From: Candidatus Krumholzibacteriota bacterium
GTDB taxonomy: Bacteria; Krumholzibacteriota; Krumholzibacteriia; LZORAL124-64-63
Length of the DNA: 64,000 nucleotides
Assembly (NCBI GenBank): GCA_022711765.1
Contig: JAKLEB010000001.1
Span: forward strand, 1,186-65,185
Direction: 5' to 3'
The notes under the pieces: generated by a model
Database searches by the model: none
What the model was told of the DNA's origin: nothing
The model's input: the letters and a program-made list of their open reading frames with translations, nothing else
Program-made: the position numbers and the translations under genes
In this document: in pieces, positions 27,479 to 45,154 of the stretch
Position numbering within the stretch: the stretch's first letter is position 1
Layout: the number at the start of each line of letters is the position of its first letter

Positions 27479-27491
27479 AAAACTCCTCAAT

Positions 27492-27520: not shown

Positions 27521-27609
27521 CATCTCCTTGGTTTGCCCAGGAACGGTCGTCACCGGGCGATCGCGTCTACGGCTCGATCCGCATGCACGCGCGACCCAGG
27601 AGGATAGGC

Positions 27610-30600
27610 ATGAGCCGCCGCATGGTCGTAACCCCGCTCATCGTCATCGCCGTCTCGCTCAGTTCCCTGGTCCTGGCCGCGCAGGGTCCTGTGCTCTACG
27701 AAGGAACGTTGGAACCGGATCAGTTCGCCTGGACCGAGCTGGCCGATGGGTCGTACCGGCTCGACCTCGGCGGTGGTCGCTCGCTCGGGGTCACGGACCT
27801 GGCGGACCTGCCGGCGATCGACCTCCTGTTGCTCGTGCCCGCCGACCTGGCGATCGCCGGCGTCGAGGTCGAACCGCTCGCGATCCGCTCGATCGTTGCG
27901 CCCGGCCGCCTGGCGCTGGCGGGCGCCCTGGCGTCGAGCGCCGGCGACCTCCTGCCGCAGCGTGACCTGGAGCCGGCCGGTGGCATGTTCCCGCCGAGCT
28001 GGGGCGCCTTCGGCGGCGTTCACAGCTGGCGGGGCTACCGGTTGCTCGCCGTGACCGTGCACCCGGCGCGCCTGCGCGACGGCGATCCCGGGTCGCCCGC
28101 GCGCCTGGACGTGCTGGAGCGGTTCGCGATCCGCGCGGTCTCGACCGGCGCGCCCGCCGCGAGCCCGCCCCTCGCTCGCGAGCGTCTCGTCGCCGGGGAG
28201 CGCAGCCGCCTGGAACGGCTGTTGCGCCCGCTCGTGGCGAATCCGGAGGCGGTGACGAGCTATCAGCGCGAGGACGGGGCTGCGCTCGACAAGTCGGGCG
28301 CTCCCTTCCTGCCCACGCCCAACCCCAGCCTCGAAGGAAGCGGGATCCGGTACCTGATCGTGACGTCGGCGGCGCTGGCGCCCGAGTTCCAGCGCCTGGC
28401 GGACCACCGCACGCGCCAGGGATTGCCGGCGCTCGTGGTGACGCGCGAGTGGATCTCCGCGAATTTCCGTCGCGGCGTCGATTTCCAGGAGACCCTGAGG
28501 ATGTTCCTGCAGGACGCGTACGCCAAGTGGGGCGTGGAGTACCTGCTGCTCGGCGGGGACACGGAGATCGTGCCGACCCGCACGATCCGGAGCAACTTCT
28601 ATCCGTACGGCGGGCACACGGACATCCCGACCGACACGTACTACGCCGCGCTCGATGGGAACTGGGGCGCCGACGGCGACGGCTGGCTCGGCGAGCCGTA
28701 CGTCACGGAGGGCAACCCCGGCGACAACGCCGATCTCGCGCCGGAACTCGCCGTGGCGCGGGCGCCGGTGCGCAGCCTCCTCGGCGCCCAGCAGTTCGTG
28801 GACAAGGTGCTGGGCTACGAGGCGACGCCGGCCGGCGCGCTCTGGGCGAACCGGATCCTCTTCGCCGCGGAGGTGCTCTTCCCGTCGCCCTGGCATCCGG
28901 GCGAACCCATCACGCTCGATGGCGCCCAGTACGCGCAGACCTTGATCGACACCATCATCGAGTCGTGCTCGACCATGTCCTATGTGCGCATGTACGAGAC
29001 CGCGCAGCTCTATCCGCGCGACGCTCCGCTGACCCGCGCGGCCCTGATCGACTCGCTCAACACCGGCCACTACGGCCACGTGGACCAGTTCGGCCACGGG
29101 CACTACTTCAACATGTCGGTCGGCGACGCGAACTTCACGGTGTCCGACGCGGACGCTCTCCACAATCCGCATCACTTCCTGCTCTTCGCCGTGAACTGCG
29201 CGTCGGGCGCGTTCGATTTCTCGTGCTTGATGGAGCGGTTCGTCGAGAATCCCGACGGCGGCGCGATCGTCTCGGTCAGCGCCGCGCGTGAAGCATTCCC
29301 CTCCAATTCCTTCGGCTACCAGTCGACGTTCTACGGCGCCATGGTCTGCGACGGCGTGCTCCGCGTCCCCGACGCGTTCAACGTGGCGCGCCTGCAGTTC
29401 ATCGGCAACACGTCGCGCAACACGGTCGACCGCTGGACGCAGCTCAATGCGGCGATCATCGGCGATCCCGCGACCGGCATCTGGTGCGGTCCGCCGCTGG
29501 CGCCCTCGATCACGGCGCCCGCCAATCTCGCCGTTGGCGAGCAGACGGTGCAGGTCCAGGTCGTGGCGGGCGGTCGGCCGGCGGTCGGCGCCGACGTCTG
29601 TCTGGTCAAGGACGGCGAGACGTACGCGTGGGCCGTCACCGATCCGGCGGGTCAGGCGTCGCTGACGATCGTCCCGCAGACGGCGGGCACGGTCACCTTG
29701 ACGGTTTCGGGCGCCAACCTCGTGCGGACGACCCGCACGATCCCGGTCGCCGGCAGCGCGACGTACGTGGCCATGACCGGATTCGGGATCGGCGACCAGT
29801 CGCCCAACGGCAACGGCAACGGCGTCGCCGAGGCCGGCGAGACGATTTCGCTGGCGCTGCAGTTGCAGGATCTCGGCGGCGGCGGCGCGACCGGGCTGAA
29901 TGTCACGTTGACCAGCGACGATCCGCAGCTCGTGGTGCTCGACGGCACGGCGAGCGCGGGCAACATCGCGCCGGGCGGATCGACCACCAACCTGGACCCG
30001 CTCGTGGTCAAGCCGCAGACCATCATGCGTGACGGTTTGCGCATCGCGATGCGGATCGTCGTGACGGCGAACGGCGGCGGCAGCTGGGTCAGCAACGGCC
30101 TGCTCGAGGTGCGGGTGCCCGAGCCGGAGGTCGCGCGCCTCGTCGTCGACGACTCCGTCTACGGCGACGGCGACGGCGTGGCGGAGAGCAACGAACGCCT
30201 GGTCCTGCGTCCGTACGTGAAGAACTACGGCAGCGGACGACTCGACCAGCTCGTCGCGCAGGTGACGAACGCGGCGGCGGGGGTCACGGTGCACAGCGCC
30301 TTCGCGTTCTACGCCAACGTCGACCTGCTGGAGGAGGAGACCTACCAGTCGGGCGAGCTCTCGGTGACCCTGGCCAACATCGGGCAGCTCCAGCCGTGCC
30401 GCGTCGATTTCCAGGACAACTACGGGCGCACCTTCACCCAGCCGCTCGAATTCAACGAGCCGGCGGCTCCCGGCCTGCCGGCCGCCGACGCGACGATCGC
30501 GTCGGACGCGATCGCGCTGCGCTGGGACCCGGTCGGCGGGGCGGCGACCCTGGGCTACCACGTCTATCGCGCGGCGGCCGAGGCGGGGCCGTTCAGCCGG

Positions 30601-32666: not shown

Positions 32667-32695
32667 TTGACTCGTTTCTTTATTTGTGGTAAGAT
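32667..32695 (+). promoter_or_regulatory. AT-rich sigma70-like promoter TTGACT-N17-TAAGAT for giant gene copy 2
   Basis: -35 TTGACT at 32667-32672, 17-nt spacer, -10 TAAGAT at 32690-32695. It is homologous to the copy-1 promoter but with a better -35 hexamer. Confidence 0.5.
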
Positions 32696-32784
32696 CATCT
32701 CCTTGGTTTGCCCAGGAACGGTCGTCACCGGGCGATCGCGTCTACGGCTCGATCCGCATGCACGCGCGACCCAGGAGGATAGGC

Positions 32785-35700
32785 ATGAGCCGCCGCATGG
32801 TCGTAACCCCGCTCATCGTCATCGCCGTCTCGCTCAGTTCCCTGGTCCTGGCCGCGCAGGGTCCTGTGCTCTACGAAGGAACGTTGGAACCGGATCAGTT
32901 CGCCTGGACCGAGCTGGCCGATGGGTCGTACCGGCTCGACCTCGGCGGTGGTCGCTCGCTCGGGGTCACGGACCTGGCGGACCTGCCGGCGATCGACCTC
33001 CTGTTGCTCGTGCCCGCCGACCTGGCGATCGCCGGCGTCGAGGTCGAACCGCTCGCGATCCGCTCGATCGTTGCGCCCGGCCGCCTGGCGCTGGCGGGCG
33101 CCCTGGCGTCGAGCGCCGGCGACCTCCTGCCGCAGCGTGACCTGGAGCCGGCCGGTGGCATGTTCCCGCCGAGCTGGGGCGCCTTCGGCGGCGTTCACAG
33201 CTGGCGGGGCTACCGGTTGCTCGCCGTGACCGTGCACCCGGCGCGCCTGCGCGACGGCGATCCCGGGTCGCCCGCGCGCCTGGACGTGCTGGAGCGGTTC
33301 GCGATCCGCGCGGTCTCGACCGGCGCGCCCGCCGCGAGCCCGCCCCTCGCTCGCGAGCGTCTCGTCGCCGGGGAGCGCAGCCGCCTGGAACGGCTGTTGC
33401 GCCCGCTCGTGGCGAATCCGGAGGCGGTGACGAGCTATCAGCGCGAGGACGGGGCTGCGCTCGACAAGTCGGGCGCTCCCTTCCTGCCCACGCCCAACCC
33501 CAGCCTCGAAGGAAGCGGGATCCGGTACCTGATCGTGACGTCGGCGGCGCTGGCGCCCGAGTTCCAGCGCCTGGCGGACCACCGCACGCGCCAGGGATTG
33601 CCGGCGCTCGTGGTGACGCGCGAGTGGATCTCCGCGAATTTCCGTCGCGGCGTCGATTTCCAGGAGACCCTGAGGATGTTCCTGCAGGACGCGTACGCCA
33701 AGTGGGGCGTGGAGTACCTGCTGCTCGGCGGGGACACGGAGATCGTGCCGACCCGCACGATCCGGAGCAACTTCTATCCGTACGGCGGGCACACGGACAT
33801 CCCGACCGACACGTACTACGCCGCGCTCGATGGGAACTGGGGCGCCGACGGCGACGGCTGGCTCGGCGAGCCGTACGTCACGGAGGGCAACCCCGGCGAC
33901 AACGCCGATCTCGCGCCGGAACTCGCCGTGGCGCGGGCGCCGGTGCGCAGCCTCCTCGGCGCCCAGCAGTTCGTGGACAAGGTGCTGGGCTACGAGGCGA
34001 CGCCGGCCGGCGCGCTCTGGGCGAACCGGATCCTCTTCGCCGCGGAGGTGCTCTTCCCGTCGCCCTGGCATCCGGGCGAACCCATCACGCTCGATGGCGC
34101 CCAGTACGCGCAGACCTTGATCGACACCATCATCGAGTCGTGCTCGACCATGTCCTATGTGCGCATGTACGAGACCGCGCAGCTCTATCCGCGCGACGCT
34201 CCGCTGACCCGCGCGGCCCTGATCGACTCGCTCAACACCGGCCACTACGGCCACGTGGACCAGTTCGGCCACGGGCACTACTTCAACATGTCGGTCGGCG
34301 ACGCGAACTTCACGGTGTCCGACGCGGACGCTCTCCACAATCCGCATCACTTCCTGCTCTTCGCCGTGAACTGCGCGTCGGGCGCGTTCGATTTCTCGTG
34401 CTTGATGGAGCGGTTCGTCGAGAATCCCGACGGCGGCGCGATCGTCTCGGTCAGCGCCGCGCGTGAAGCATTCCCCTCCAATTCCTTCGGCTACCAGTCG
34501 ACGTTCTACGGCGCCATGGTCTGCGACGGCGTGCTCCGCGTCCCCGACGCGTTCAACGTGGCGCGCCTGCAGTTCATCGGCAACACGTCGCGCAACACGG
34601 TCGACCGCTGGACGCAGCTCAATGCGGCGATCATCGGCGATCCCGCGACCGGCATCTGGTGCGGTCCGCCGCTGGCGCCCTCGATCACGGCGCCCGCCAA
34701 TCTCGCCGTTGGCGAGCAGACGGTGCAGGTCCAGGTCGTGGCGGGCGGTCGGCCGGCGGTCGGCGCCGACGTCTGTCTGGTCAAGGACGGCGAGACGTAC
34801 GCGTGGGCCGTCACCGATCCGGCGGGTCAGGCGTCGCTGACGATCGTCCCGCAGACGGCGGGCACGGTCACCTTGACGGTTTCGGGCGCCAACCTCGTGC
34901 GGACGACCCGCACGATCCCGGTCGCCGGCAGCGCGACGTACGTGGCCATGACCGGATTCGGGATCGGCGACCAGTCGCCCAACGGCAACGGCAACGGCGT
35001 CGCCGAGGCCGGCGAGACGATTTCGCTGGCGCTGCAGTTGCAGGATCTCGGCGGCGGCGGCGCGACCGGGCTGAATGTCACGTTGACCAGCGACGATCCG
35101 CAGCTCGTGGTGCTCGACGGCACGGCGAGCGCGGGCAACATCGCGCCGGGCGGATCGACCACCAACCTGGACCCGCTCGTGGTCAAGCCGCAGACCATCA
35201 TGCGTGACGGTTTGCGCATCGCGATGCGGATCGTCGTGACGGCGAACGGCGGCGGCAGCTGGGTCAGCAACGGCCTGCTCGAGGTGCGGGTGCCCGAGCC
35301 GGAGGTCGCGCGCCTCGTCGTCGACGACTCCGTCTACGGCGACGGCGACGGCGTGGCGGAGAGCAACGAACGCCTGGTCCTGCGTCCGTACGTGAAGAAC
35401 TACGGCAGCGGACGACTCGACCAGCTCGTCGCGCAGGTGACGAACGCGGCGGCGGGGGTCACGGTGCACAGCGCCTTCGCGTTCTACGCCAACGTCGACC
35501 TGCTGGAGGAGGAGACCTACCAGTCGGGCGAGCTCTCGGTGACCCTGGCCAACATCGGGCAGCTCCAGCCGTGCCGCGTCGATTTCCAGGACAACTACGG
35601 GCGCACCTTCACCCAGCCGCTCGAATTCAACGAGCCGGCGGCTCCCGGCCTGCCGGCCGCCGACGCGACGATCGCGTCGGACGCGATCGCGCTGCGCTGG

Positions 35701-37581
35701 GACCCGGTCGGCGGGGCGGCGACCCTGGGCTACCACGTCTATCGCGCGGCGGCCGAGGCGGGGCCGTTCAGCCGGGCCAACCCCGACCTGCTGCAGGGGA
35801 TCGCGTACTTCGAGGACCGCGGACTCATGCAGCTGACGCCGTACTGGTACAAGGTCACCGCCGTGGACACGTTCCTGCAGGAGAGCGATTTCTCGCCGGT
35901 CGTGACCCAGGGGACCATGCCGCCCGAGCTCACCAATTTCCCGCTGGAGTTCCAGTTGCAGACGAGCGGCCACATCGCCGTGGGGGACATCGACGGGGAC
36001 GGGCGGTTGGAGATCGTCCTCGCGTCGGACGAGGTCTACGCGTGGAACGAGGACGGCAGCGAGCTCGTCGACGGGGACAACGACGCCCAGACCACCGGTC
36101 CTTTGACGGGAGTCGACGGTCAGTTCGAGCCGTCCGGCGTGGTCCTGGCGGACCTCGACGGTGAGCCGGGGCTGGAGATCATCGCGAGCGAGCGCCTGAA
36201 CGCGCGCCAGATCCACGTCTTCAGGGCGGACGGCAGCGAGCTTCCGGGCTGGCCGCGGACCATGCAGAACTCCTGGAACTGGGCGACGCCGGCGGTCGGC
36301 GACGTCGACGGCGACGGCGACAACGAGGTCGTGGTCAACGATACGGCCGGGCGCACGTTCGTCTGGCACCATACCGGAGTCGAGCTGCGCGACGGGGACA
36401 GCAACCCCGCCACCAACGGCGTGTTCGTCGATCGCGACGAGAGCTGGGGCTACTCGTCGCCCGCGCTCTTCGACCTGGACGGGGACGGCGCCTGCGAGAT
36501 CATCTTCGGCACGCGCTACTTCACGCCGGGCAACGCGCTGCTCGCGTATCGTTACAACGGCAGTCAGGCGCAGAACTTCCCGTTCACGACGGGCAGCGCG
36601 CAGATCATCTGCGCGCCGGCGATCGCCGATCTCGATCGGGACGGCGACAAGGAGATCGTCTTCTTCACGACCGCTCACTACCTCTACGCGATCCACCACA
36701 ACGCGGCGGCGTACCCGGGCTTCCCGGTCTTCTTCAACACGAACTGGGACGACTCTCCGGGCCCCAGCCCGGCGGTCGGCAATTTCGACGGCGACAACGA
36801 CCTGGAGATCCTCTGGCCGGTCAACGGCGGTTCGTTCCGCCTGGACCTGATCGCGGTCGACACGGGCCGCTTCGACGGCACGACCGGCGACATCATGGCG
36901 GGCTGGCCGGTGCAGCTGCCGGCGAACTCGGAGGGCAGTCCGGTCGTGGGCGACATCAACGGCGACGGCCTCTCGGATGTCGTGCAGCCCGTCGGCAGCG
37001 ACGAGACCGAAACGCCGGACCTCATCTTCGCCGTCGACCACGCGGGAGAGGGGATCCCGGGCTTCCCGATCCGGCTCGACGGGATCCCGCGCTCGACGCC
37101 GGTGATCTGCGACCTGGATCTCGACGGCGACGTGGAGGTCGTGTACGGGTCGTGGGACCGGTTGCTCCACGCCTGGGACCTGCCGGCGCCCTTCGACGCC
37201 GCGAACGTGCCGTGGCCGACCTTCCACGGCAATCCGCAGCGGACCGGCGTCGCCGTGCAGGTGAGCATCACCGGCGTCGACGATCCGGTGGTGCCGAGCA
37301 TCTTCACCGTCATGCCGCCGCACCCCAATCCGTTCAATCCGGTCACCACTCTGCGCCTCTACGTGGCGCCGGGACCGGACCGCCGGCTCGACGTGGCGGT
37401 GTACGACCTGCGGGGCCGCCGGATCCGGCAGCTGCACGCGGGCGACGCCGCGGCGGGGTGGCACGACCTGACCTGGGACGGGCGCGACGACACGGGTCGC
37501 GGCCAGGCCAGCGGCGTGTACTTCGTCCGTGCGCAGCAGGCGGCAGAGTCGCGGACGTTCAAGCTGACGCTCGTGAAATAG
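32785..37581 (+). CDS. Giant secreted protein, copy 2 (identical protein): C25 peptidase + CARDB + FN3 + FG-GAP propeller + T9SS CTD
   Basis: 1598 aa. The protein is identical to copy 1. At the DNA level there are only two synonymous differences near the 3' end (CGC to CGT, ACC to ACG). Confidence 0.8.
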   Translation: MSRRMVVTPLIVIAVSLSSLVLAAQGPVLYEGTLEPDQFAWTELADGSYRLDLGGGRSLGVTDLADLPAIDLLLLVPADLAIAGVEVEPLAIRSIVAPGRLALAGALASSAGDLLPQRDLEPAGGMFPPSWGAFGGVHSWRGYRLLAVTVHPARLRDGDPGSPARLDVLERFAIRAVSTGAPAASPPLARERLVAGERSRLERLLRPLVANPEAVTSYQREDGAALDKSGAPFLPTPNPSLEGSGIRYLIVTSAALAPEFQRLADHRTRQGLPALVVTREWISANFRRGVDFQETLRMFLQDAYAKWGVEYLLLGGDTEIVPTRTIRSNFYPYGGHTDIPTDTYYAALDGNWGADGDGWLGEPYVTEGNPGDNADLAPELAVARAPVRSLLGAQQFVDKVLGYEATPAGALWANRILFAAEVLFPSPWHPGEPITLDGAQYAQTLIDTIIESCSTMSYVRMYETAQLYPRDAPLTRAALIDSLNTGHYGHVDQFGHGHYFNMSVGDANFTVSDADALHNPHHFLLFAVNCASGAFDFSCLMERFVENPDGGAIVSVSAAREAFPSNSFGYQSTFYGAMVCDGVLRVPDAFNVARLQFIGNTSRNTVDRWTQLNAAIIGDPATGIWCGPPLAPSITAPANLAVGEQTVQVQVVAGGRPAVGADVCLVKDGETYAWAVTDPAGQASLTIVPQTAGTVTLTVSGANLVRTTRTIPVAGSATYVAMTGFGIGDQSPNGNGNGVAEAGETISLALQLQDLGGGGATGLNVTLTSDDPQLVVLDGTASAGNIAPGGSTTNLDPLVVKPQTIMRDGLRIAMRIVVTANGGGSWVSNGLLEVRVPEPEVARLVVDDSVYGDGDGVAESNERLVLRPYVKNYGSGRLDQLVAQVTNAAAGVTVHSAFAFYANVDLLEEETYQSGELSVTLANIGQLQPCRVDFQDNYGRTFTQPLEFNEPAAPGLPAADATIASDAIALRWDPVGGAATLGYHVYRAAAEAGPFSRANPDLLQGIAYFEDRGLMQLTPYWYKVTAVDTFLQESDFSPVVTQGTMPPELTNFPLEFQLQTSGHIAVGDIDGDGRLEIVLASDEVYAWNEDGSELVDGDNDAQTTGPLTGVDGQFEPSGVVLADLDGEPGLEIIASERLNARQIHVFRADGSELPGWPRTMQNSWNWATPAVGDVDGDGDNEVVVNDTAGRTFVWHHTGVELRDGDSNPATNGVFVDRDESWGYSSPALFDLDGDGACEIIFGTRYFTPGNALLAYRYNGSQAQNFPFTTGSAQIICAPAIADLDRDGDKEIVFFTTAHYLYAIHHNAAAYPGFPVFFNTNWDDSPGPSPAVGNFDGDNDLEILWPVNGGSFRLDLIAVDTGRFDGTTGDIMAGWPVQLPANSEGSPVVGDINGDGLSDVVQPVGSDETETPDLIFAVDHAGEGIPGFPIRLDGIPRSTPVICDLDLDGDVEVVYGSWDRLLHAWDLPAPFDAANVPWPTFHGNPQRTGVAVQVSITGVDDPVVPSIFTVMPPHPNPFNPVTTLRLYVAPGPDRRLDVAVYDLRGRRIRQLHAGDAAAGWHDLTWDGRDDTGRGQASGVYFVRAQQAAESRTFKLTLVK

Positions 37582-37730: not shown

Positions 37731-39371
37731 ATGAGATCGATCGCGCCGGGCGACCGCTCAGGGTGGCTGGTCGCCGTCGTTTTGGGAATGGTGGCGGGCT
37801 GCCAGGGGGATGCGCCGCAGCCTGCGCCTCCGGCGGACGCGACCGCCGCGCCGTCGCGCGGCGGAACGGTCGTCGTGGCGCTGCCCGACGAGCCGGATGT
37901 CCTCAATTCCCTGATCCGCACGTCCGCAGTCGCCGGTTCGGTGCTCTCGCTGCTGCAGGCGGGGCTCGCGGAGATGGGTGAGGATCTGCAGTGGTACCCG
38001 ATGATCGCCGAGCGCTGGGAGGTCGCGCCGGACAGCCTCGCGATCACCTACCACCTGCGCCCGTGGACCTGGGAGGACGGGACGCCGCTGACCGCCGACG
38101 ACGTGCGGGCGAGCTACGAGCTCCTGACCGATCCGCGCATCGCCAGCCCGCGCGCCGATCAGCTGCGACCCGTTGTCAGGGTGACGACGCCGGACCTCGC
38201 GACGGTCCGGTATGAATTCGCGGCGCCCCAGGCGCAGGCAGTCCAGACGACCGTCCACTCGCTGTTGCCGGCTCACCGCGTGCGCTCGCTGGATCCGAGC
38301 GCCGTCGCGACCTGGCCGTTGAATCGATCGCCGCTCGCGTCCGGCCCATTCCGGCTCGAATCGTGGGAACCGGGACGCCAGCTCGTGCTGGCGCCGAATC
38401 CACACTATCCTCTGGCGGCTCCCTGGCTCGATCGCGTCATCCTGCGCATCGTGCCCGACGAGACGGCGCGCGTCATGGCGCTGGAGACCGGCGAGATCGA
38501 TCTCGTCTTCGACGTGCCGGCGACGGCCGCGGCGCGCCTGGCGACGGATCCGCAGCTGCGGGTCGTGGAAGTCCCGGGTCGCGTCTTCGCCTTCCTGATG
38601 TGGAACGTGCGCCGACCGGTCCTGCGGGATCCGGCGGTCCGTCGCGCACTGTCCCTGGCCCTGGATCGCGAGCGGTTCGTGGCCGCCCTGACGGGCGGTT
38701 TCGGCGCGCCGGCCGCGTCCTACTTGCCGCCGGCGCTCTGGAACCACCACCGCGGGCTGGTGCCCGATCCCTGCCGGCCCGATTCGGCCGCCGCCCTGCT
38801 CGCCGCGGCGGGGTGGGTGGACCACGACGGCGACGGCGTGCGGGAACGATCGGGCGTGCCGTTGCGCCTGGAGGTGATCTTCCGGGGCGGCGACACCGCG
38901 CGGGAAAACGGCGTTGCGCTCGTGCGCCGGTATCTGACCGCGGTCGGCGTCGATGTCTCGTTGCGTGCGCTGGAGCTGGCGACGGCGCTCGAGTTCCTGC
39001 GCGCGGGTCGTTTCGACGCGTATTTCGGAGAATACCAGGCCAACCTCTACGCGGACCCCTCGCCGCTCGTGCGGTCCGGCGCGAGCGATCGCTTCAATTT
39101 CGGCGGCTACGCGAACGCGCGCGTCGATTCCCTGCTCGACCGCGCGCTCGCGGAGCCGGACCGGACGCGAAGTCTGCCCATCTGGTACGCGGTGCAGGAA
39201 GCGCTGGTCGCCGACCCGCCGGCCGCGGTGCTGTATTATCCGCGCCAGCTGGTCGCCTACAATCGACGTGTGCGCGACGTGCGCCCACACCTGCTCTCGC
39301 CGCTCAACAATCTCGCGGAGTGGTGGATCGCACCCGCGGACCGCCGCTGGGCGGATTCCAGTTCGCGGTAA
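37731..39371 (+). CDS. ABC-transporter solute-binding protein family 5 (oligopeptide/nickel-type), lipoprotein, orphan
   Basis: 546 aa from the ATG at 37731, after a GAGGAG ribosome-binding site. Lipoprotein signal with lipobox (VAVVLGMVAGC). SBP_bac_5-like throughout. No permease or ATPase genes are adjacent. Confidence 0.75.
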   Translation: MRSIAPGDRSGWLVAVVLGMVAGCQGDAPQPAPPADATAAPSRGGTVVVALPDEPDVLNSLIRTSAVAGSVLSLLQAGLAEMGEDLQWYPMIAERWEVAPDSLAITYHLRPWTWEDGTPLTADDVRASYELLTDPRIASPRADQLRPVVRVTTPDLATVRYEFAAPQAQAVQTTVHSLLPAHRVRSLDPSAVATWPLNRSPLASGPFRLESWEPGRQLVLAPNPHYPLAAPWLDRVILRIVPDETARVMALETGEIDLVFDVPATAAARLATDPQLRVVEVPGRVFAFLMWNVRRPVLRDPAVRRALSLALDRERFVAALTGGFGAPAASYLPPALWNHHRGLVPDPCRPDSAAALLAAAGWVDHDGDGVRERSGVPLRLEVIFRGGDTARENGVALVRRYLTAVGVDVSLRALELATALEFLRAGRFDAYFGEYQANLYADPSPLVRSGASDRFNFGGYANARVDSLLDRALAEPDRTRSLPIWYAVQEALVADPPAAVLYYPRQLVAYNRRVRDVRPHLLSPLNNLAEWWIAPADRRWADSSSR

Positions 39372-39379
39372 TATTACTG
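39366..39379. promoter_or_regulatory. Palindromic operator-like site CGGTAATATTACTG (core GTAATATTAC), upstream copy
   Basis: The 10-bp core is a perfect palindrome and AT-rich in GC-rich DNA. An identical 14-mer recurs at 39423..39436. The two bracket a TTGACA-N17-TATCGT promoter. Confidence 0.5.
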
Positions 39380-39385
39380 CCGTTG

Positions 39386-39414
39386 TTGACACTTCCGGAC
39401 GATCGGATTATCGT
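39386..39414 (+). promoter_or_regulatory. Sigma70-like promoter TTGACA-N17-TATCGT for the H1-like gene
   Basis: TTGACA at 39386-39391 and TATCGT at 39409-39414. An AAGGAG ribosome-binding site lies at 39461 and the ATG at 39472. Confidence 0.45.
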
Positions 39415-39422
39415 GCGCGGGA

Positions 39423-39436
39423 CGGTAATATTACTG
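39423..39436. promoter_or_regulatory. Palindromic operator-like site CGGTAATATTACTG, downstream copy
   Basis: Second identical 14-mer. It is positioned just downstream of the -10 element. Confidence 0.5.
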
Positions 39437-39471
39437 GTCACCGCGCGAGCCGTGCGAGAAAAGGAGTCTCC

Positions 39472-40053
39472 ATGCCGACGAATCTGACCCGATTGCTCTC
39501 CAGACTGAGCCGCGCCGACCTACACAGGCTGCTCGTGGCCAAGGAGGAGATCGAGCACCTGGAGGAGCGGCGCACCGAGCTCGCGAGCGAACTGGCCGAG
39601 GTCGACCAGAAGCTGGACCGCCTCATCGGACGGGTGGCAGGCACCCGCCGCGGCCCGGGCCGGCCCGCCGGCCGGAGGTCCGGCAGGAAGGTCGGCCGGA
39701 GAACCGTCAAGAAGGCCGCGAAGAAGACCGCCAGACGAGCTGCCAGGACGACCGCCGGGAAGGCGGCGAAGACGGCGGCCAGGAAGACCGCGACGAAGAC
39801 CGCGCGGAAGGGCGGCGAGCGCCCCGCGCCGCGCGGCCGGCGGACCGGCGGGCAGCGGGCCACTCTCGAGAACGTGGTGATCGGCGTCCTCGCGAACAAA
39901 GGGGAGCCGATGAGCTTCAAGGCGATCCTCGAGACGATCACGGCCGGCAAGCTGTTCCGCAGCCGCAGCCGCGACTTCTCGAACGTCCTGAGACGGACCC
40001 TGTCCACGAGTCGTCGCGTGAAGCGGGTCTCGCGCGGGGTGTACGGGACCTGA
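39472..40053 (+). CDS. Histone H1-like / lysine-alanine-rich nucleoid-associated protein with C-terminal winged-helix (HARE-HTH / linker-histone-like) domain
   Basis: 193 aa. N-terminal coiled coil (EEIEHLEERRTELASELAEVDQKLDRL). A central low-complexity basic tract (KKAAKKTARRAARTTAGKAAKTAARKTATKTARK) follows. The C-terminal 60-aa globular domain (GEPMSFKAILETITAGKLFRS...VKRVSRGVYGT) is winged-helix-like. Confidence 0.6.
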   Translation: MPTNLTRLLSRLSRADLHRLLVAKEEIEHLEERRTELASELAEVDQKLDRLIGRVAGTRRGPGRPAGRRSGRKVGRRTVKKAAKKTARRAARTTAGKAAKTAARKTATKTARKGGERPAPRGRRTGGQRATLENVVIGVLANKGEPMSFKAILETITAGKLFRSRSRDFSNVLRRTLSTSRRVKRVSRGVYGT

Positions 40054-40060
40054 GCCGCCC

Positions 40061-40405
40061 TCAACCCGGCGGCCAGCCGAGCGCGCGGCCGCCGAGCACG
40101 TGCAGATGGAGGTGCGGCACGGTCTGGCAAGCGTCGCGGCCGCAGTTGATGACGAACCGGTAACCCGTTTCGGCGAGACCGAGCTTGGCCGCCACCTGGG
40201 CCGCCGTCACCTGCAGCCGGCCGACGAGATCGGCGTCGGCGCCGGTGAGGTCGGTGAGCGCGGCGACGTGCCGGCGCGGGATCACCAGGAAATGGACCGG
40301 CGCCTGCGGATTCAAGTCGCGGAACGCGACGAAGTCGGTGTCGGCGTGGACCTCCCGGCAGGGGATGTCCCCGGCGGCGATGCGGCAGAAGATGCAGTCG
40401 GCCAT
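40061..40405 (-). CDS. HIT-family protein (Hint-like)
   Basis: 114 aa on the minus strand from MADCIFCRIAAGDIP. The histidine triad HLHLHVLGG is present. GGAGG ribosome-binding site. The track ORF is longer through an upstream GTG. Confidence 0.75.
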   Translation of the reverse strand: MADCIFCRIAAGDIPCREVHADTDFVAFRDLNPQAPVHFLVIPRRHVAALTDLTGADADLVGRLQVTAAQVAAKLGLAETGYRFVINCGRDACQTVPHLHLHVLGGRALGWPPG

Positions 40406-40494
40406 CGCGGCTCCTTCGGGCGCCGCACGCTCGCGGCGCCGATTGAGGTCACGGCAAGCTAGCACGACCCGGCGCGCCGCGGCAAGGAGCGGGC

Positions 40495-41433
40495 GTGGAC
40501 ATCCTCGTGGTCGGTTACAACGCCTTCGACATCACGGTGCCGACGGCCGGATTGCCCGCGCTCGACAGCAAGCACGAGGTGACCGAGATCTACCACGGCG
40601 GCGGCGGCCCGGGCGCCACCGCCGCCGTCTGCCTCGCACGGTTGGGCGCGCGAGTGCGGCTCGTGACGGTGTTCGGCGACGACGAGGGCGCCGCGGTGCA
40701 GCGCCGCGAGTTGCTCGAAGCGGGCGTCGACCTCTCGCTGTCGGTCGCCGCCGGCGGGCACCGCTCGCCGCGCGCGGTGATCCTGGTCGATCCCGCGGCG
40801 GCGACACGGACGGTTTTCTGGTCCCGCGGCACCTTGCCCGCGCTCGCGCCGGACGCGATGGACCCCGCCTGGCTCGACTCCTGCGACCTCCTGTATTGCG
40901 ACGGTCACGAGCCGCCGGCGGCGGAGCGCCTCGCGGCGGCCGCCCGGGCCCGCGGTCTGCCCGTCGTGCTCGACGCCGGATCGGTCCGGGCGGGGGCGTC
41001 CGAGCTGGTCGCCCGTTGCACCGACGTGATCGCTTCGCCCGGGTTCGCCGCGAGCCTGACCGGCGAGAGCGGGCCCGTCGCCGGGTTGCGGGCGCTGCGG
41101 GCCCGGGGGCCGGGTCGCGTCGCGATCACCTACGGCGAGGCCGGCGTCCTCGCGCTCGACGAGACCGGCGGCGGCGTCTTCCACGTCCCAGCCTGCGCGG
41201 TCGAGGTCCGCGACACGACCGGCGCCGGCGACGCCTTTCACGCCGGCTACGCGTTCGCCCGGGCGCGCGGCGACAGCTGGCCCGCCGGTCTCGCGCTGGG
41301 CGCCGCCGTAGCGGCGCTCAAATGCCGCGACTGGGGCGGCCGGCGGGGGTTGCCCACCCTGGACGAGGCGATGCGCCTGCGGGCGAACGGCCCCTGGCGG
41401 CAAGCGGTGCCGCCAGGCTGGTCCGGGGCCTGA
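40495..41433 (+). CDS. PfkB-family carbohydrate kinase (ribokinase-like)
   Basis: 312 aa. N-terminal ILVVGYNAFDI. C-terminal motif DTTGAGDAFHAGYAFA (PfkB signature 2). Confidence 0.8.
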   Translation: MDILVVGYNAFDITVPTAGLPALDSKHEVTEIYHGGGGPGATAAVCLARLGARVRLVTVFGDDEGAAVQRRELLEAGVDLSLSVAAGGHRSPRAVILVDPAAATRTVFWSRGTLPALAPDAMDPAWLDSCDLLYCDGHEPPAAERLAAAARARGLPVVLDAGSVRAGASELVARCTDVIASPGFAASLTGESGPVAGLRALRARGPGRVAITYGEAGVLALDETGGGVFHVPACAVEVRDTTGAGDAFHAGYAFARARGDSWPAGLALGAAVAALKCRDWGGRRGLPTLDEAMRLRANGPWRQAVPPGWSGA

Positions 41434-41512
41434 TTTCCGGCTGGACATTCGCCGATTTTTCGCCTAACGTGGGCGAACACCCAGCGAAGCCGGTTCCGGC
41501 CGGGAGGTCGCC

Positions 41513-42118
41513 ATGTCGCTGACGCGTCGCCAAGCGGAGATCCTGGACTTCATCCGCGCCTTCTCGGCCGAGAACCACTATGCGCCGACTCTCCAGGAGA
41601 TCGGCGACCGGTTCGGACTGTCCTCGGTCGCCACGGTGCACAAGCACGTCAGCCAGCTGGTGGGCAAGGGATACCTCAAACGGGAGCGCCGCAACGCCAG
41701 CCGGGACCTCGCCGTCGTGACCGGCGGTCGGGACGCGGCGGCGGTCCTGATCCCGCTGCTCGGCACGGTGGCGGCCGGTATGCCGATCGAGGCCCTGCCG
41801 GAGGCGGAAGAGATCGCCCTGCCCGAGCAGTGGCTGGGGCGCCGGCGAACGTTCGCTCTCCGCGTGCGCGGCGACTCGATGATCGAGGAGCAGATCCGCG
41901 ACGGGGACGTCGTCGTCGTCGAGGAACGCGAGACCGCGCGCAACGGCGAGACCGTGATCGCCCTCGTCGACGGCGAGAACGCCACGGTCAAGCAATACCA
42001 CCGGCAAGGCGCGTTGATCCGCCTCGTGCCCGCGAATCCCCGGCTCTCGCCCCTGGAGTACGACGAGGCGAGGGTCCGGATCCAGGGCGTCGTCATCGGC
42101 GTCCTGCGCCGCTTCTGA
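41513..42118 (+). CDS. lexA: LexA repressor
   Basis: 201 aa. The N-terminal winged helix-turn-helix is LTRRQAEILDFIRAF...PTLQEIGDRFGLSSVATVHKHVSQLVGKGYL. The cleavage site AAG lies in VAAGMP. The catalytic Ser is in RGDSMIE and the catalytic Lys in TVKQY. Confidence 0.9.
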   Translation: MSLTRRQAEILDFIRAFSAENHYAPTLQEIGDRFGLSSVATVHKHVSQLVGKGYLKRERRNASRDLAVVTGGRDAAAVLIPLLGTVAAGMPIEALPEAEEIALPEQWLGRRRTFALRVRGDSMIEEQIRDGDVVVVEERETARNGETVIALVDGENATVKQYHRQGALIRLVPANPRLSPLEYDEARVRIQGVVIGVLRRF

Positions 42119-42740: not shown

Positions 42741-45154
42741 TGCGGCGGAGGAGCCAGCCCAGGTCCGAAGGCGTGATCGGCAGTCCGCAGGAGCAATCGA
42801 CCCAGGGCGTGGTCTTGCCGGCGACGTTGCCGATCCTGCCGATCAGCGAGGCCGTCATCTTCCCGTTCATGATGGTGCCGCTCGTTCTGAGCGATGCCAA
42901 CCTGATCAAGCTGGCGGACGAGTGTCTGGCGGGCGACAAGATCCTCGGCGCCTTCGCCCAGCGCCCCGACCCGCCCGAGGGAGAGCCGGACCATGCCGAC
43001 GCGGCGCCGACCAGCGACGCCGAGCAGATCTACCAGGTCGGCACCGCCGTGCGGATCCAGAAGATGCTGCGCTTCCCGGACGGCAGCATGCGGCTGCTCG
43101 GCCAGGGGATCGCCCGCTGCCGGATCGAGGCCATCCTTCAGGAGGAGCCCTACCTGCGTGCGGCGATTTCCGCCGTGCACGAGGAGACGGCCGACGACTC
43201 GCAGACCCTCGCCTACATGCGCGGCGTCGCGAACAATTTCCTGAAGATCATCGACGCGAGCGAGCACCTGTCCGACGAGCTGAAGGTCGTCGTGATGAAC
43301 ATCGACGATCCCGGCCGGCTCGCGGACCTCATCGCGACGAATCTCGACATCGACGTCGCGGAGAAGCAGGCCGTGCTCGAGGAGGCCTCGCCGCGCAAGC
43401 GGCTGCAGCTGCTCTCGAAGGTCGTCATTCGCGAGCTCGACGTGCTGGAACTCGGTCAGCAGTTGCAGACGAAGGTGCGCAAGTCCATCGACAAGGACCA
43501 GCGCGAATATTACCTGCGCCAGCAGTTGAAGGCGATCCGCCGCGAGCTGGGAGACGAGGACGAAGGCTCCGTCGAGCTGGAGGAAATCCGGGAACGCCTG
43601 AACCAGATCGCGTTGCCGGAGAAGGTGGGGGCGGCGGCCGAGCGCGAGTACGACCGGCTCTCGCGGATGTCGCCGGGCGCGAGCGAGTACACGGTCAGCA
43701 AGACCTATCTCGAGTGGATCCTCGATCTGCCGTGGCTCGTCTCGAGCGAGGACAAGCTGGACCTCGGCCGCGCCGAGGAGATCCTCGAGCGGGACCATTA
43801 CGGTCTCGAGGACGTCAAGGAACGGATCCTCGAGTTCCTCTCGGTGCGCAAGCTCAAAGGCGACCACCGCGGGCCGATCCTCTGCCTCCAGGGGCCGCCC
43901 GGGGTCGGCAAGACGTCGCTGGGCCGCAGCATCGCGGAGGCGGTCGGTCGCAAGTTCTTCCGCTTCTCGCTCGGCGGCATGCGCGACGAGGCGGAGATCC
44001 GCGGGCACCGGCGCACCTACGTCGGCGCGATGCCGGGCCGCATCATCGCCGGCATCCGGGATTGCGGGACCAATAATCCGCTCATCATGCTCGACGAGAT
44101 CGACAAGCTGGGCCAGGACTTCCGCGGCGATCCGGCGAGCGCGCTGCTCGAGGTCCTCGATCCGGAACAGAACCACGGATTCACCGATCACTACCTGGCG
44201 CTGGCGTTCGACCTCTCGAAGGTGATGTTCATCACGACCGCGAACATGCTCGACACGATTCCGCGTCCGCTGCTCGACCGCATGGAAACGATCCAGCTGC
44301 CGGGCTACACCAACCTCGAGAAGCTGCAGATCGCGAAGCGCTACCTCGTGCCGCGGCAGATCGCCGAGAACGGCCTCAATCGCCGGAAGATCCGGTTCAC
44401 CGATTCCGGAATCCTGCACATCATCGAGGACCACACGCGCGAAGCCGGCGTCCGGGAGCTCGAGCGCAAGATCGGCGGCGTCTGCCGCAAGGCCGCGCGC
44501 AAGGTGGCGCGCGGTGGGCGCCGGCCGCACGCGATCACTGCCAAGAACCTCGCCGACTACCTGGGCCCGCCGACGTACACCGGGGACAGCCTGCGCCGCC
44601 GCGCGCTGGTCGGCGTGGTCACCGGCCTGGCCTGGACTCCGGTCGGCGGCAAGATCCTGAGCATCGAGGGGCTCAGCCTGCCCGGCGGCGGCGGCAACCT
44701 GAAACTCACCGGCCAGCTCGGCAGCGTGATGCAGGAATCGGCATCGGCCGCCTTCAGCTACCTGCGCAGCCGGTTCGGCGGCGACGAGAAGCACGCGGAC
44801 TTCTTCTCGCGCGACGTTCACATCCACGTGCCGGCCGGGGCAATCCCGAAGGACGGTCCGTCCGCCGGCATCGCGATGGCGACGGTCCTGCTGTCGCTGC
44901 TGCTCGCCAAGCCGGTGGACCGCCGCACCGCGATGACGGGCGAGATCACCTTGACCGGCGAGGTGCTGCCGATCGGCGGGCTCCTGGAGAAAGTCCTGGC
45001 GGCCCATCGCGTCGGGATCCGGCGAGTCATCATCCCGGACGCCAATATCACCGATCTGGATCACATCCCGGAGGAAGTCCGCGCTGCGGTGGAATTCTTG
45101 CCGGTGGCGCACGTGGACCAGGTGTGGCAAGCTGTGTTCCCGGGAGCGTTGTAG
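42740..45154 (+). CDS. lon: ATP-dependent Lon protease
   Basis: About 804 aa. The ATG at 42740 overlaps the hsp20 stop as TGATG; an alternative GTG lies at 42737. LON N-domain. AAA+ Walker A GPPGVGKTS. The C-terminal protease domain carries the catalytic Ser in PKDGPSAGIAMATVL. Confidence 0.95.
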   Translation: MRRRSQPRSEGVIGSPQEQSTQGVVLPATLPILPISEAVIFPFMMVPLVLSDANLIKLADECLAGDKILGAFAQRPDPPEGEPDHADAAPTSDAEQIYQVGTAVRIQKMLRFPDGSMRLLGQGIARCRIEAILQEEPYLRAAISAVHEETADDSQTLAYMRGVANNFLKIIDASEHLSDELKVVVMNIDDPGRLADLIATNLDIDVAEKQAVLEEASPRKRLQLLSKVVIRELDVLELGQQLQTKVRKSIDKDQREYYLRQQLKAIRRELGDEDEGSVELEEIRERLNQIALPEKVGAAAEREYDRLSRMSPGASEYTVSKTYLEWILDLPWLVSSEDKLDLGRAEEILERDHYGLEDVKERILEFLSVRKLKGDHRGPILCLQGPPGVGKTSLGRSIAEAVGRKFFRFSLGGMRDEAEIRGHRRTYVGAMPGRIIAGIRDCGTNNPLIMLDEIDKLGQDFRGDPASALLEVLDPEQNHGFTDHYLALAFDLSKVMFITTANMLDTIPRPLLDRMETIQLPGYTNLEKLQIAKRYLVPRQIAENGLNRRKIRFTDSGILHIIEDHTREAGVRELERKIGGVCRKAARKVARGGRRPHAITAKNLADYLGPPTYTGDSLRRRALVGVVTGLAWTPVGGKILSIEGLSLPGGGGNLKLTGQLGSVMQESASAAFSYLRSRFGGDEKHADFFSRDVHIHVPAGAIPKDGPSAGIAMATVLLSLLLAKPVDRRTAMTGEITLTGEVLPIGGLLEKVLAAHRVGIRRVIIPDANITDLDHIPEEVRAAVEFLPVAHVDQVWQAVFPGAL

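What the first reader, a model, noticed from the sequence alone, without database searches (positions are those of the whole stretch)
39361..39480. Two identical AT-rich palindromic operators (CGGTAATATTACTG) bracketing a consensus -35 promoter upstream of a histone-H1-like gene
The 10-bp core GTAATATTAC is a perfect palindrome. The identical 14-mer occurs at 39366 and 39423, 57 bp apart. One copy abuts the TTGACA -35 element and the other sits just downstream of the TATCGT -10 element, the classic geometry of a dimeric repressor that loops or occludes a promoter. The regulated gene encodes a Lys/Ala-rich H1-like protein with a winged-helix C-terminus. This may be autoregulation by the nucleoid-associated protein itself, or control by an unidentified repressor. 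The site is extremely AT-rich for this genome, so it should be rare and its genome-wide occurrences would define a regulon.
Basis: seen in the sequence. Interest (0 to 1): 0.6.

Follow-up and report, generated by a model that had tools for sequence, protein, structure and literature searches.

The report
Conserved AT-rich operator of histone-like gene
Two identical AT-rich 14-mers really do bracket the promoter of a histone-H1-like DNA-binding gene in an uncultured Krumholzibacteria genome; the same short motif sits in this gene's promoter in about 30 other species, so it is very probably a repressor binding site, most likely for the gene's own product.

Summary
CGGTAATATTACTG occurs exactly at 39366-39379 and 39423-39436, with 0 expected by chance. 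Their TAATATTA cores are the two longest A/T runs in this 71 % GC window. They flank a TTGACA-17-TATCGT promoter 57 nt upstream of a 193-aa gene.

Fifty-two non-redundant orthologous loci show the element is real and conserved. GTAATATT is the most enriched 8-mer upstream of the gene (25/52, against 9/1954 background chunks). Exact GGTAATATT is about 170-fold denser there than in 305 kb of flanking DNA.

Three refinements:
- The conserved unit is an asymmetric 9-10-mer, GGTAATATT(A), not a symmetric palindrome.
- Only the proximal, start-site-overlapping copy is widely conserved. The full distal copy is specific to this species.
- The 57-bp spacing is out of helical phase.

The gene product is predicted as a coiled coil, a disordered Lys/Ala/Arg linker, and a winged helix of the HARE-HTH, forkhead and linker-histone type. 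That layout resembles Rok and H-NS-type nucleoid proteins.

Best reading (inferred, not shown): negative autoregulation by a two-headed dimer. LexA, an RNA structure and chance are rejected. A separate repressor cannot be excluded, because a genome-wide scan was not possible. Overall this is a new variant of a known kind, of moderate interest.

The parts
39366..39379 (+). Distal site CGGTAATATTACTG (conserved core GGTAATATTA at 39367-39376). It lies at about -56 to -43 of the inferred start and ends 6 nt upstream of the -35. It contains the stop codon (39369-39371) of the upstream SBP_bac_5 gene.
   Evidence: Exact match. The full copy occurs here only in this species and its near-identical strains (L001-L007). 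Orthologues have a half-site ATCTTACC or GGTAATATT at -9 to -28 from the -35.
39386..39391 (+). -35 hexamer TTGACA
   Evidence: Promoter scan. TTGAC is present at the equivalent place in 48 of 52 non-redundant orthologous upstream regions.
39409..39414 (+). -10 hexamer TATCGT, 17-nt spacer. The transcription start is inferred at about 39421-39422; it has not been mapped.
   Evidence: Orthologues have TAnnnT (often TAGGGT or TACGGT) 17-18 nt after TTGACA.
39423..39436 (+). Proximal site CGGTAATATTACTG (core GGTAATATTA at 39424-39433), overlapping the inferred start at about +2 to +15. This is the evolutionarily conserved copy.
   Evidence: GGTAATATT-type sites start +32 to +40 from the -35 start in 17 species loci. 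The position weight matrix over 29 sites gives 1.3-2.0 bits at positions 1-9.
39461..39466 (+). Ribosome-binding site AAGGAG, 5 nt before the ATG
   Evidence: Read from the sequence. GGAGG or AGGAG is present at the same place in the orthologues.
39472..40053 (+). Regulated gene, 193 aa. Residues 14-56 form a long helix with conserved heptad leucines (predicted coiled coil; nt 39511-39639). Residues 59-127 are a disordered Arg/Ala/Gly/Lys/Thr-rich linker with GRP and RGR motifs (nt 39646-39852). Residues 130-193 form the winged helix (nt 39859-40050), with invariant NVLRRTLSTS...RG.Y.
37731..39371 (+). Upstream neighbour, an SBP_bac_5 solute-binding protein gene. This is context only; its 3' end overlaps the distal site.
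   Evidence: It is syntenic in the close clade only; other clades have a different upstream gene but still carry the motif.

Best explanation
The two 14-mers are protein-binding sites (operators) that control the promoter of a nucleoid-associated-protein-like gene. The most likely binder is that gene's own product, giving negative autoregulation.

Proposed mechanism:
1. The protein dimerises or oligomerises through its N-terminal coiled coil.
2. Each chain carries a winged-helix head on a roughly 70-residue flexible, basic tether.
3. One head, together with the adjacent Arg-rich tail, recognises one asymmetric GGTAATATT(A) site. This site is TpA-rich, flexible and extremely unusual in a 71 % GC genome.
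4. Occupancy of the proximal site (+2 to +15) blocks open-complex formation or promoter escape.
5. The second head captures the distal site (-56 to -43). This clamps or bridges the promoter and makes repression cooperative. Because the tether is flexible, the sites need not be in helical phase.
6. When protein levels fall, the sites empty and the strong TTGACA promoter fires.

Shown: the sites, their rarity, their conservation and promoter-overlapping positions, and the predicted protein architecture.

Inferred: the transcription start, the identity of the binder, repression rather than activation, and the bridging geometry.
For: 1. The element is the strongest conserved signal upstream of this gene. 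GTAATATT occurs in 25/52 upstream regions against 9/1954 background chunks, and TAATATTA in 15/52 against 1/1954. Exact GGTAATATT is 171-fold denser in the 150 nt upstream than in 305 kb of surrounding DNA. Matches to the 12-mer with at most 1 mismatch occur only in this promoter.

2. The element travels with the gene. It is present whether the upstream neighbour is SBP_bac_5 or an unrelated gene. No transcription factor other than LexA is linked to the locus, and LexA is excluded as the binder.

3. It always lies on the core promoter: after the -10, directly upstream of the -35, or split around the -35.

4. The product is a predicted DNA binder of suitable architecture.
- It has a coiled coil with invariant heptad leucines L21, L30 and L37, and nearly invariant L41 and L51.
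- It has a basic disordered linker. GRP or RGR motifs occur in 45 of 118 homologues, and one member matches the Pfam AT_hook model.
- It has a high-confidence winged helix.

5. The recognition-helix region NVLRRTLSTS is invariant, and the GGTAATATT core is likewise conserved across species at 35-60 % protein identity. That pattern fits a co-inherited DNA-binding domain and site.

6. An asymmetric 9-10-bp site is what a monomeric winged-helix head plus a minor-groove tail covers. In the Rok-DNA complex, the winged helix binds 5 bp and an Arg-rich N-terminal tail binds the adjacent 5 bp (PMC6212790).

7. Precedent. H-NS-like proteins nucleate at high-affinity sites, assisted by a basic linker. 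H-NS and StpA are negatively autoregulated (PMC6936261). MucR binds multiple sites in its own promoter (title cited in PMC11841835).
Against: - No experiment or binding prediction links this protein to this DNA.
- HARE-HTH domains are not known as sequence-specific operator binders.
- A small clade (L017, L019, L021) has a different palindrome (TTTTCAATATTGAAAA) on the promoter, although its recognition helix is identical.
- The conserved flanking GG would suggest major-groove base reading, for which there is no model here.
- About 15 of 52 loci show no clear site.
- The whole genome could not be scanned, so a regulon, and hence a separate regulator, is not excluded.
- A paralogue in one MAG (L045) lacks the site.
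Confidence: 0.45

Rival explanations
1. The sites are operators for a different, unlinked sequence-specific repressor, dedicated or global, encoded elsewhere in the genome. The histone-like gene is simply one of its targets.
For: - The flanking G-G, and partly the A-C, are conserved, which is typical of base-specific major-groove reading by a classical regulator.
- The motif variant in the L017, L019 and L021 clade changes although the gene's own recognition helix does not.
- Only about 3 % of any one genome could be inspected, so other targets may exist.
Against: - No candidate regulator other than LexA is linked to the locus in any clade, and LexA is excluded.
- No other promoter in the 64-kb window or in 305 kb of orthologous neighbourhoods carries the site.
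- The site is asymmetric, unlike most operators of dimeric regulators.
- It follows this gene through changes of genomic context.
Confidence: 0.3
2. The elements are promoter-strength elements rather than operators. The upstream copy would act as an UP-like element contacted by the RNA polymerase alpha C-terminal domain. The downstream copy would be an easily melted, AT-rich start region that makes this a very strong constitutive promoter in a GC-rich genome.
For: - The distal copy and the upstream copies in other clades lie at about -43 to -56, where UP elements lie (location of UP elements from own knowledge).
- The proximal copy lies on the start site and always has the same orientation in the main clade.
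- The gene is likely to be highly expressed.
Against: - The same 14-mer appears in two functionally different positions.
- The position shifts by 5-7 bp within the closest subclade and moves to the other side of the promoter in other clades.
- The sequence is TpA-rich, not A-tract-like as in known UP elements (own knowledge).
- Other promoters in the window, for lexA and hsp20, lack it.
Confidence: 0.12
3. The sites are SOS boxes bound by LexA, whose gene lies 1.5 kb downstream.
For: lexA (41513-42118) is close by and linked to the gene in at least 35 species loci. LexA boxes are often AT-rich palindromes (own knowledge).
Against: None of about 38 lexA promoters examined contains GGTAATATT. 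They share a different conserved motif, TTTCGC(C) direct repeats at an 11-bp period inside a TGGACA-N17-TAnnnT promoter. LexA is normally autoregulated, so its box should be there.
Confidence: 0.01
4. The sites are a chance or duplication artefact, or a structure in the mRNA leader or a terminator remnant of the upstream gene.
For: The palindrome could in principle pair in RNA, and the distal copy overlaps the 3' end of the upstream gene.
Against: - Zero are expected by chance.
- The element is conserved in dozens of species.
- The leader RNA folds no better than shuffles, z = 0.13.
- Upstream copies in other clades are not transcribed with the gene.
- No terminator-like site lies at the repeat.
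Confidence: 0.02

Closest known systems
H-NS-type nucleoid proteins with high-affinity nucleation sites and negative autoregulation (H-NS/StpA, Lsr2, MvaT, MucR)
   Same: All have an N-terminal oligomerisation domain, a flexible basic linker and a C-terminal DNA-binding domain. They prefer AT-rich, TpA-containing DNA, nucleate at short high-affinity sites, and repress their own promoters (PMC6936261). Here the two most AT-rich spots of the window flank the gene's own promoter.
   Different: The DNA-binding domain here is a winged helix, not the H-NS, Lsr2 or MvaT fold. The site is a sharply defined 9-10-mer with conserved flanking G-G, not a loose AT-rich preference. Silencing of foreign DNA, filament formation and bridging are untested.
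Rok of Bacillus subtilis
   Same: Both are about 190 aa with an N-terminal oligomerisation region and a C-terminal winged helix that is monomeric on DNA. In Rok, an Arg-rich tail (RRRRGTAR) just before the winged helix lies in the minor groove next to the 5 bp bound by the winged helix (PMC6212790). Here RGRRTGG precedes the winged helix. Invariant N171 (start of helix 3) and R188 (wing) sit where Rok's contact residues N154 and R174 sit; this is a topological inference. Pfam WH_Rok matches 18 of 42 family members over the full profile.
Eukaryotic linker histones H1/H5, and bacterial 'H1-like' proteins (Chlamydia Hc1/Hc2, Burkholderia H1-like)
   Different: The domain order is reversed, with the basic region before the winged helix. 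An N-terminal coiled coil is added. There is no sequence match to the Pfam linker-histone family. By sequence the winged helix is HARE-HTH. The fold similarity is generic to winged helices; forkhead and RNA polymerase delta score equally well.
HARE-HTH domain proteins (RNA polymerase delta subunit, ASXL, restriction-enzyme N-termini)
   Different: Known HARE-HTH proteins are not operator-binding repressors. They have been proposed as readers of modified DNA (Aravind & Iyer 2012, as cited in bioRxiv 10.1101/2023.06.07.544091). The coiled-coil, basic-linker architecture here is different.
Two-operator repression loops of classical dimeric or tetrameric repressors (lac, gal, deo type)
   Same: Two identical sites bracket a promoter, one of them over the start site.
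   Different: The sites are asymmetric in conservation. They are spaced 57 bp, or 5.4 turns, which is out of phase. The distal one is not conserved as a full site in relatives.

Membership tests
Pfam HARE-HTH (PF05066) | Score at or above the curated gathering cut-off (25.9 bits) | tested here: inconclusive
   The window protein scores 20.0 bits (E 9e-4), below the cut-off. Orthologues P0003 (28.9), P0047 (28.2), P0031 (29.9) and P0024 (26.1) pass it. 31 of 42 family members match at E<=0.01.
Pfam HARE-HTH (PF05066) | Winged-helix fold resembling the RNA polymerase delta N-terminal domain | tested here: met
Rok family (Pfam WH_Rok PF23159) | Score at or above the curated cut-off (27.6 bits) | tested here: not met
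   The best family member scores 25.9 bits and the window protein 14.7 bits. 18 of 42 members match at E<=0.01 over the whole 58-position profile. The PDB profile search does not retrieve Rok.
Rok family (Pfam WH_Rok PF23159) | N-T-R minor-groove contact residues (N154, T156, R174) and an Arg-rich tail before the winged helix | tested here: inconclusive
   Invariant N171 at the start of helix 3 and R188 in the wing occupy the equivalent topological positions. T has no equivalent (L173). An RGRRTGG tail is present in the window protein but is variable in the family. No residue-level structural alignment with Rok was obtained.
H-NS-like nucleoid-associated proteins / xenogeneic silencers (functional class) | N-terminal oligomerisation domain, flexible linker and C-terminal DNA-binding domain | tested here: met
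   Prediction only. There is a helix at 14-56 with a conserved heptad pattern and weak hits to GCN4 and Coil-Ser, a disordered basic region at 59-127, and a winged helix at 130-193.
H-NS-like nucleoid-associated proteins / xenogeneic silencers (functional class) | Preferential binding of AT-rich DNA, DNA bridging or filaments, silencing of foreign DNA, negative autoregulation | not testable with these tools
   This needs EMSA, footprinting, ChIP or bridging assays. The only indirect support is that the most AT-rich sites of the window sit on the gene's own promoter.
Linker histone H1/H5 | Globular domain of the GH1/GH5 winged-helix type | tested here: inconclusive
Linker histone H1/H5 | Tripartite order: short N-tail, globular domain, then a long Lys/Ala/Pro-rich C-terminal tail | tested here: not met
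   The basic region lies N-terminal to the winged helix, and a coiled coil precedes it.
LexA (SOS) box | The same motif present in the lexA gene's own promoter | tested here: not met
   lexA promoters of the window and about 37 other loci lack GGTAATATT. They share TTTCGC(C) direct repeats instead.
Classical palindromic operator of a dimeric HTH repressor | Both half-sites equally conserved across orthologous sites | tested here: not met
   Positions 1-9 carry 1.3-2.0 bits, position 10 carries 0.8, and positions 11-12 carry 0.5-0.6 (29 sites).
Repression loop between two phased operators | Operator centres separated by an integral number of helical turns, with both operators conserved | tested here: not met
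   57 bp at 10.5 bp per turn is 5.4 turns. The full distal copy is found only in this species.
UP element | A/T-rich element at about -40 to -60, A-tract-like, found only upstream of the -35 | tested here: inconclusive
   The distal copy lies at about -56 to -43. However, the identical sequence also lies at +2 to +15, and it is TpA-rich rather than A-tract-like.

The most novel reading that the evidence does not exclude
This is a previously undescribed class of bacterial chromatin protein, restricted to Krumholzibacteria and relatives. It would be a coiled-coil dimer carrying two linker-histone/forkhead-like winged-helix heads on H1-tail-like Lys/Ala/Arg tethers.

Unlike H-NS, Lsr2, MvaT or Rok, it would recognise a sharply defined 9-10-mer, GGTAATATT(A). 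It would use copies of this site on its own promoter as a dosage sensor.

If so, it would be a fifth structural solution to the 'H-NS-like' problem, in a high-GC lineage. It would also be a bacterial protein that combines both hallmarks of eukaryotic linker histones.

A more remote variant: the HARE-HTH head reads a base modification within AATATT, so that expression of the chromatin protein is coupled to DNA methylation state.
Probability: 0.3. Interest if true: 0.7.

Novelty: new variant of a known kind. Interest (0 to 1): 0.5.

Why it matters
Krumholzibacteria have no cultured, genetically tractable member, and nothing is known about their chromatin proteins or transcriptional control. This locus gives three things:
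- a cis-element defined by conservation alone (GGTAATATT on a TTGACA-N17-TAnnnT promoter);
- a candidate abundant DNA-organising protein whose domain combination is not described for the four known H-NS-like families;
- a simple, directly testable protein-site pair, needing only one purified 193-aa protein and one 100-bp fragment.

If the autoregulation model holds, the 9-mer is a ready-made probe for the protein's genome-wide nucleation sites. The family would extend the list of convergent H-NS analogues to the FCB-related phyla. If it fails, the site marks an unknown regulator of a chromatin gene.

Tried and rejected
1. LexA box. Rejected: lexA promoters carry a different conserved motif and never GGTAATATT.
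2. RNA leader structure. Rejected: minimum free energy -14.5 kcal/mol against a shuffle mean of -14.9, z = 0.13.
3. A second site at 23763-23797 (CTGTAAT-N19-ATTACAG). It lies in frame inside a glycosyltransferase coding sequence, so it is a coincidence.
4. AATATTACC at 43506-43514. It lies inside lon (codons GAA TAT TAC CTG), and the same coding sequence recurs in other species' loci. It is a coding coincidence.
5. Metagenome-wide scan for paired cores (GTAATATTAC-N25-55-GTAATATTAC). 
6. A 12- or 14-mer scan of public collections to define a regulon. Not attempted: thousands of chance hits are expected in AT-rich genomes, and the scan cannot be restricted to one taxon.
7. A linked regulator gene. 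Neighbour clustering over 52 loci found only SBP_bac_5 or another secreted protein upstream, and HIT, PfkB, LexA, Hsp20 and Lon downstream.
8. Sequence homology to Rok via PDB profile searches. No hit.
9. NCBIfam. There is no curated family, only low-complexity hits such as H1-like proteins and Hc2.
10. Literature. No paper on Krumholzibacteria nucleoid proteins was found in the searchable library.
Full report
**1. The observation**

The sequence CGGTAATATTACTG is present exactly at 39366-39379 and 39423-39436. With up to two mismatches allowed, nothing else in the window matches, and none of 100 dinucleotide-preserving shuffles gave any match.

The palindromic 10-bp core GTAATATTAC has no other copy with 0 or 1 mismatch. 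The window is 71 % G+C throughout. The two TAATATTA cores are the longest A/T runs in all 64 kb. GGTAAT occurs on the + strand only here.

A single sigma-70-like promoter is predicted in 38800-40600, against 0.1 expected. It is TTGACA (39386-39391), a 17-nt spacer, then TATCGT (39409-39414). The distal copy ends 6 nt upstream of the -35. The proximal copy begins 8 nt downstream of the -10, at about +2 to +15 of an inferred, unmapped start near 39421.

A ribosome-binding site AAGGAG (39461-39466) precedes the ATG at 39472. The stop codon of the upstream SBP_bac_5 gene (TAA, 39369-39371) lies inside the distal copy.

**2. Source and gene**

The 193-aa product is identical to an NCBI protein of a Candidatus Krumholzibacteria MAG. 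It sits on contigs of about 2.1 Mb from several digester metagenomes. It has 184 homologues in the protein collection.

The alignment shows three parts:
- a conserved N-terminus with invariant or nearly invariant leucines at heptad spacing (L21, L30, L37, L41, L51);
- a length-variable Lys/Ala/Arg-rich middle;
- a very conserved C-terminus (SRSKNFDNVLRRTLSTS..VKRV.RGVYG).

AlphaFold2 on this alignment gives the following:
- one long helix, residues 14-56, pLDDT above 90;
- a disordered stretch, residues 59-127, pLDDT below 50;
- a winged helix, residues 130-193, pLDDT about 95.

The winged helix was compared with known families and folds.
- Pfam HARE-HTH: 20.0 bits for the window protein, below the 25.9 cut-off. 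Several orthologues pass it, and 31 of 42 members match.
- Pfam WH_Rok: 18 of 42 members match over the full model, all below its cut-off.
- Foldseek: forkhead domains, delta, Z-alpha and, lower down, the Rok DNA-binding domain.

The linker is 65 % K/R/A at the median. It carries GRP or RGR motifs in 45 of 118 homologues, and the window protein has GPGRPAGRR and PRGRRTGG. The architecture (oligomerisation helix, basic tether, winged helix) is that of Rok and H-NS-type nucleoid proteins (PMC6212790, PMC6936261).

**3. Conservation of the DNA element**

Three orthologous loci fetched by exact-protein look-up already showed GGTAATATTAC just after the -10. A scan of one genome per species gave 59 further loci. 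Most are labelled Krumholzibacteria, and many are labelled 'uncultured Fibrobacteraceae'. After assigning start codons with a family HMM, I compared 52 non-redundant 150-nt upstream regions.

An unbiased 8-mer count compared these regions with all other 150-nt chunks of the same loci:

| 8-mer | Upstream regions | Background chunks |
|---|---|---|
| GTAATATT | 25/52 | 9/1954 |
| GGTAATAT | 23/52 | 12/1954 |
| TAATATTA | 15/52 | 1/1954 |

These 8-mers rank above those containing the -35 hexamer.

Other measures agree:
- Exact GGTAATATT is present upstream in 19 of 52 loci. It occurs 24 times in 7.8 kb there, against 5 times in 305 kb elsewhere, a 171-fold higher density.
- Matches to the 12-mer with at most one mismatch are found only in this promoter.
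- The promoter itself is conserved. TTGAC is present in 48 of 52 regions, followed after 17-18 nt by TAnnnT, often TAGGGT.

**4. Refinements from the comparison**

*The element is asymmetric.* A weight matrix of the best site per locus (29 sites) has 1.3-2.0 bits at positions 1-9 (GGTAATATT), 0.8 at position 10 and about 0.5 at positions 11-12. The left arm points the same way relative to the gene.

*The position varies but always lies on the core promoter*:
- In most of the nearer clade, the site starts 3-4 nt after the -10, at about -3 to +6.
- In the window's subclade, it starts 8-11 nt after the -10.
- In other clades, GGTAATATT lies directly upstream of the -35, for example in L022, L025, L039 and L042.
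- In another group (L020, L023, L024, L038, L043), inverted half-sites flank the -35: GGTAAYAT, then N5-6, TTGACA, N3, TTATTACT.
- A small clade (L017, L019, L021) instead has TTTTCAATATTGAAAA overlapping the -35 and recurring after the -10.

*Only this species has a full distal copy.* Close relatives have ATCTTACC, an inverted half-site, 6-8 nt upstream of the -35. L009 has GGTAATATTg fused to the -35.

*The spacing is out of phase.* 57 bp is 5.4 helical turns.

**5. What binds?**

LexA is excluded. lexA lies 1.5 kb downstream and is linked in at least 35 loci. Its promoters never contain the motif. They share their own conserved element: TTTCGC(C) direct repeats with an 11-bp period inside TGGACA-N17-TAnnnT. 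In the window these lie at 41442-41470.

Other alternatives are also weak:
- An RNA-level role is excluded by the fold control, z = 0.13, and by the untranscribed upstream copies in other clades.
- No regulator gene other than lexA, which is excluded above, is linked to the locus in any clade.
- The element follows the gene when the upstream neighbour changes.
- The DNA-binding helix of the gene product is invariant, and so is the GGTAATATT core.

An asymmetric 9-10-bp site suits a monomeric winged-helix head plus an adjacent basic tail. Rok works this way: its winged helix binds 5 bp and an Arg-rich tail binds the neighbouring 5 bp, both in the minor groove, with a preference for flexible TpA steps (PMC6212790). 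TAATATTA contains three TpA steps and no A-tract.

A coiled-coil dimer with two heads on roughly 70-residue tethers could occupy two sites 57 bp apart regardless of phase. It could also tolerate the changing site arrangements seen between clades. H-NS-like proteins nucleate at high-affinity sites with the help of a basic linker, and H-NS and StpA repress their own genes (PMC6936261).

I therefore favour negative autoregulation, with confidence about 0.45. This is inference; no binding was or could be tested here.

The main rival is an unlinked sequence-specific repressor (about 0.3). Three things favour it: the conserved flanking G-G, the variant palindrome in a clade with an unchanged recognition helix, and my inability to scan whole genomes. 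A promoter-strength role (UP-like element plus AT-rich start region) is a weaker rival (about 0.12).

**6. Limits**

Single-site scans of public collections would be swamped by chance matches.

The regulon question is therefore open. Within 64 kb plus 305 kb, no other promoter has the site. The only other exact 9-mer in the window lies in the lon coding sequence.

**7. Comparison with known systems, and verdict**

In function, this looks like a nucleoid-associated protein with autoregulatory high-affinity sites.

For membership:
- The winged helix belongs to, or lies next to, HARE-HTH.
- It is not a Rok family member by the curated threshold.
- It is not a linker histone, because the domain order is reversed and there is no sequence match.
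- The site is not a classical symmetric operator.

I rate this a new variant of a known kind, with interest 0.5. The higher-interest reading is a new class of bacterial chromatin protein with linker-histone-like features and a defined nucleation motif. It is not excluded, at probability about 0.3.

Noticed in passing
window 41442-41477 (lexA promoter); also lexA upstream regions in about 37 loci, e.g. L012 ~5040-5140 and L042 ~4970-5076: lexA promoters across the class share TGGACA-N17-TAnnnT. The spacer holds two TTCGCC/TTTCGC direct repeats at an 11-bp period, and a third repeat lies upstream of the -35 in many species. In the window an inverted GGCGAA follows at 41472-41477. This is a candidate direct-repeat LexA operator for Krumholzibacteria, reminiscent of the alphaproteobacterial GTTC-N7-GTTC type.
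   Followed up: partly
loci L014-L072: ~1.5-2 kb downstream of the histone-like gene: The gene order histone-like gene, HIT(-), PfkB kinase, LexA, Hsp20, Lon is conserved over much of the class. The upstream neighbour differs between clades: SBP_bac_5 or another secreted protein.
   Followed up: partly
L009/L034 3001-3849 (P0012, 282 aa); L048 3001-3864; L055 3001-3918: Some family members are longer (282-305 aa) and contain the NVLRRTLSTS winged-helix signature twice. They have two tandem winged helices separated by a second Lys/Ala-rich stretch.
   Followed up: no
window 27259-32406 and 32671-37581: Two adjacent giant paralogous genes of about 1,600-1,700 aa lie just upstream of the locus. 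They carry Peptidase_C25, FG-GAP and a C-terminal FlgD_ig (T9SS-type sorting) domain. The arrangement is conserved in close relatives.
   Followed up: no
window 43504-43514 (inside lon); L025 ~1583; L070 ~4968: GCGAATATTACC recurs in the lon coding sequence of several species (codons GAA TAT TAC CTG). It is the only other exact GGTAATATT 9-mer (minus strand) in the window. This is most likely a coding coincidence, but it would be a potential intragenic binding site for an AT-seeking protein.
   Followed up: partly
window 23763-23797: The split inverted repeat CTGTAAT-N19-ATTACAG resembles the half-sites of the motif. It lies in frame within a GT1-type glycosyltransferase gene (…EDYCNPDELWQHYS…).
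   Followed up: yes
L123 ~1-160; L132/L149/L163 ~2400-2560; L124/L158/L161: Unrelated low-GC metagenome contigs carry dense arrays of GTAATATTAC. Examples are 20-bp tandem units GTAATATTACAAAGTGGTTT and clusters with GGTAAC/GTTACC. Some sit next to microsatellites and lack real ORFs, so they are probably eukaryotic or mobile-element repeats. They are not related to this system.
   Followed up: partly
record titles of L014, L018, L019, L026, L027 and others: Many MAGs carrying this Krumholzibacteria-type locus, with the same synteny and promoter motif, are labelled 'uncultured Fibrobacteraceae'. A few are labelled Gemmatimonadales, Actinomycetota or Binatia. These labels are probably taxonomic mislabelling or binning contamination.
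   Followed up: no
L045 (2075-2575) and L048 (3001-3864), same MAG ERP019367_co1_103: One genome encodes two paralogues of the family. One has the GGTAATATTACT site on a TTGACA promoter. The other has neither a recognisable -35 nor the site.
   Followed up: no
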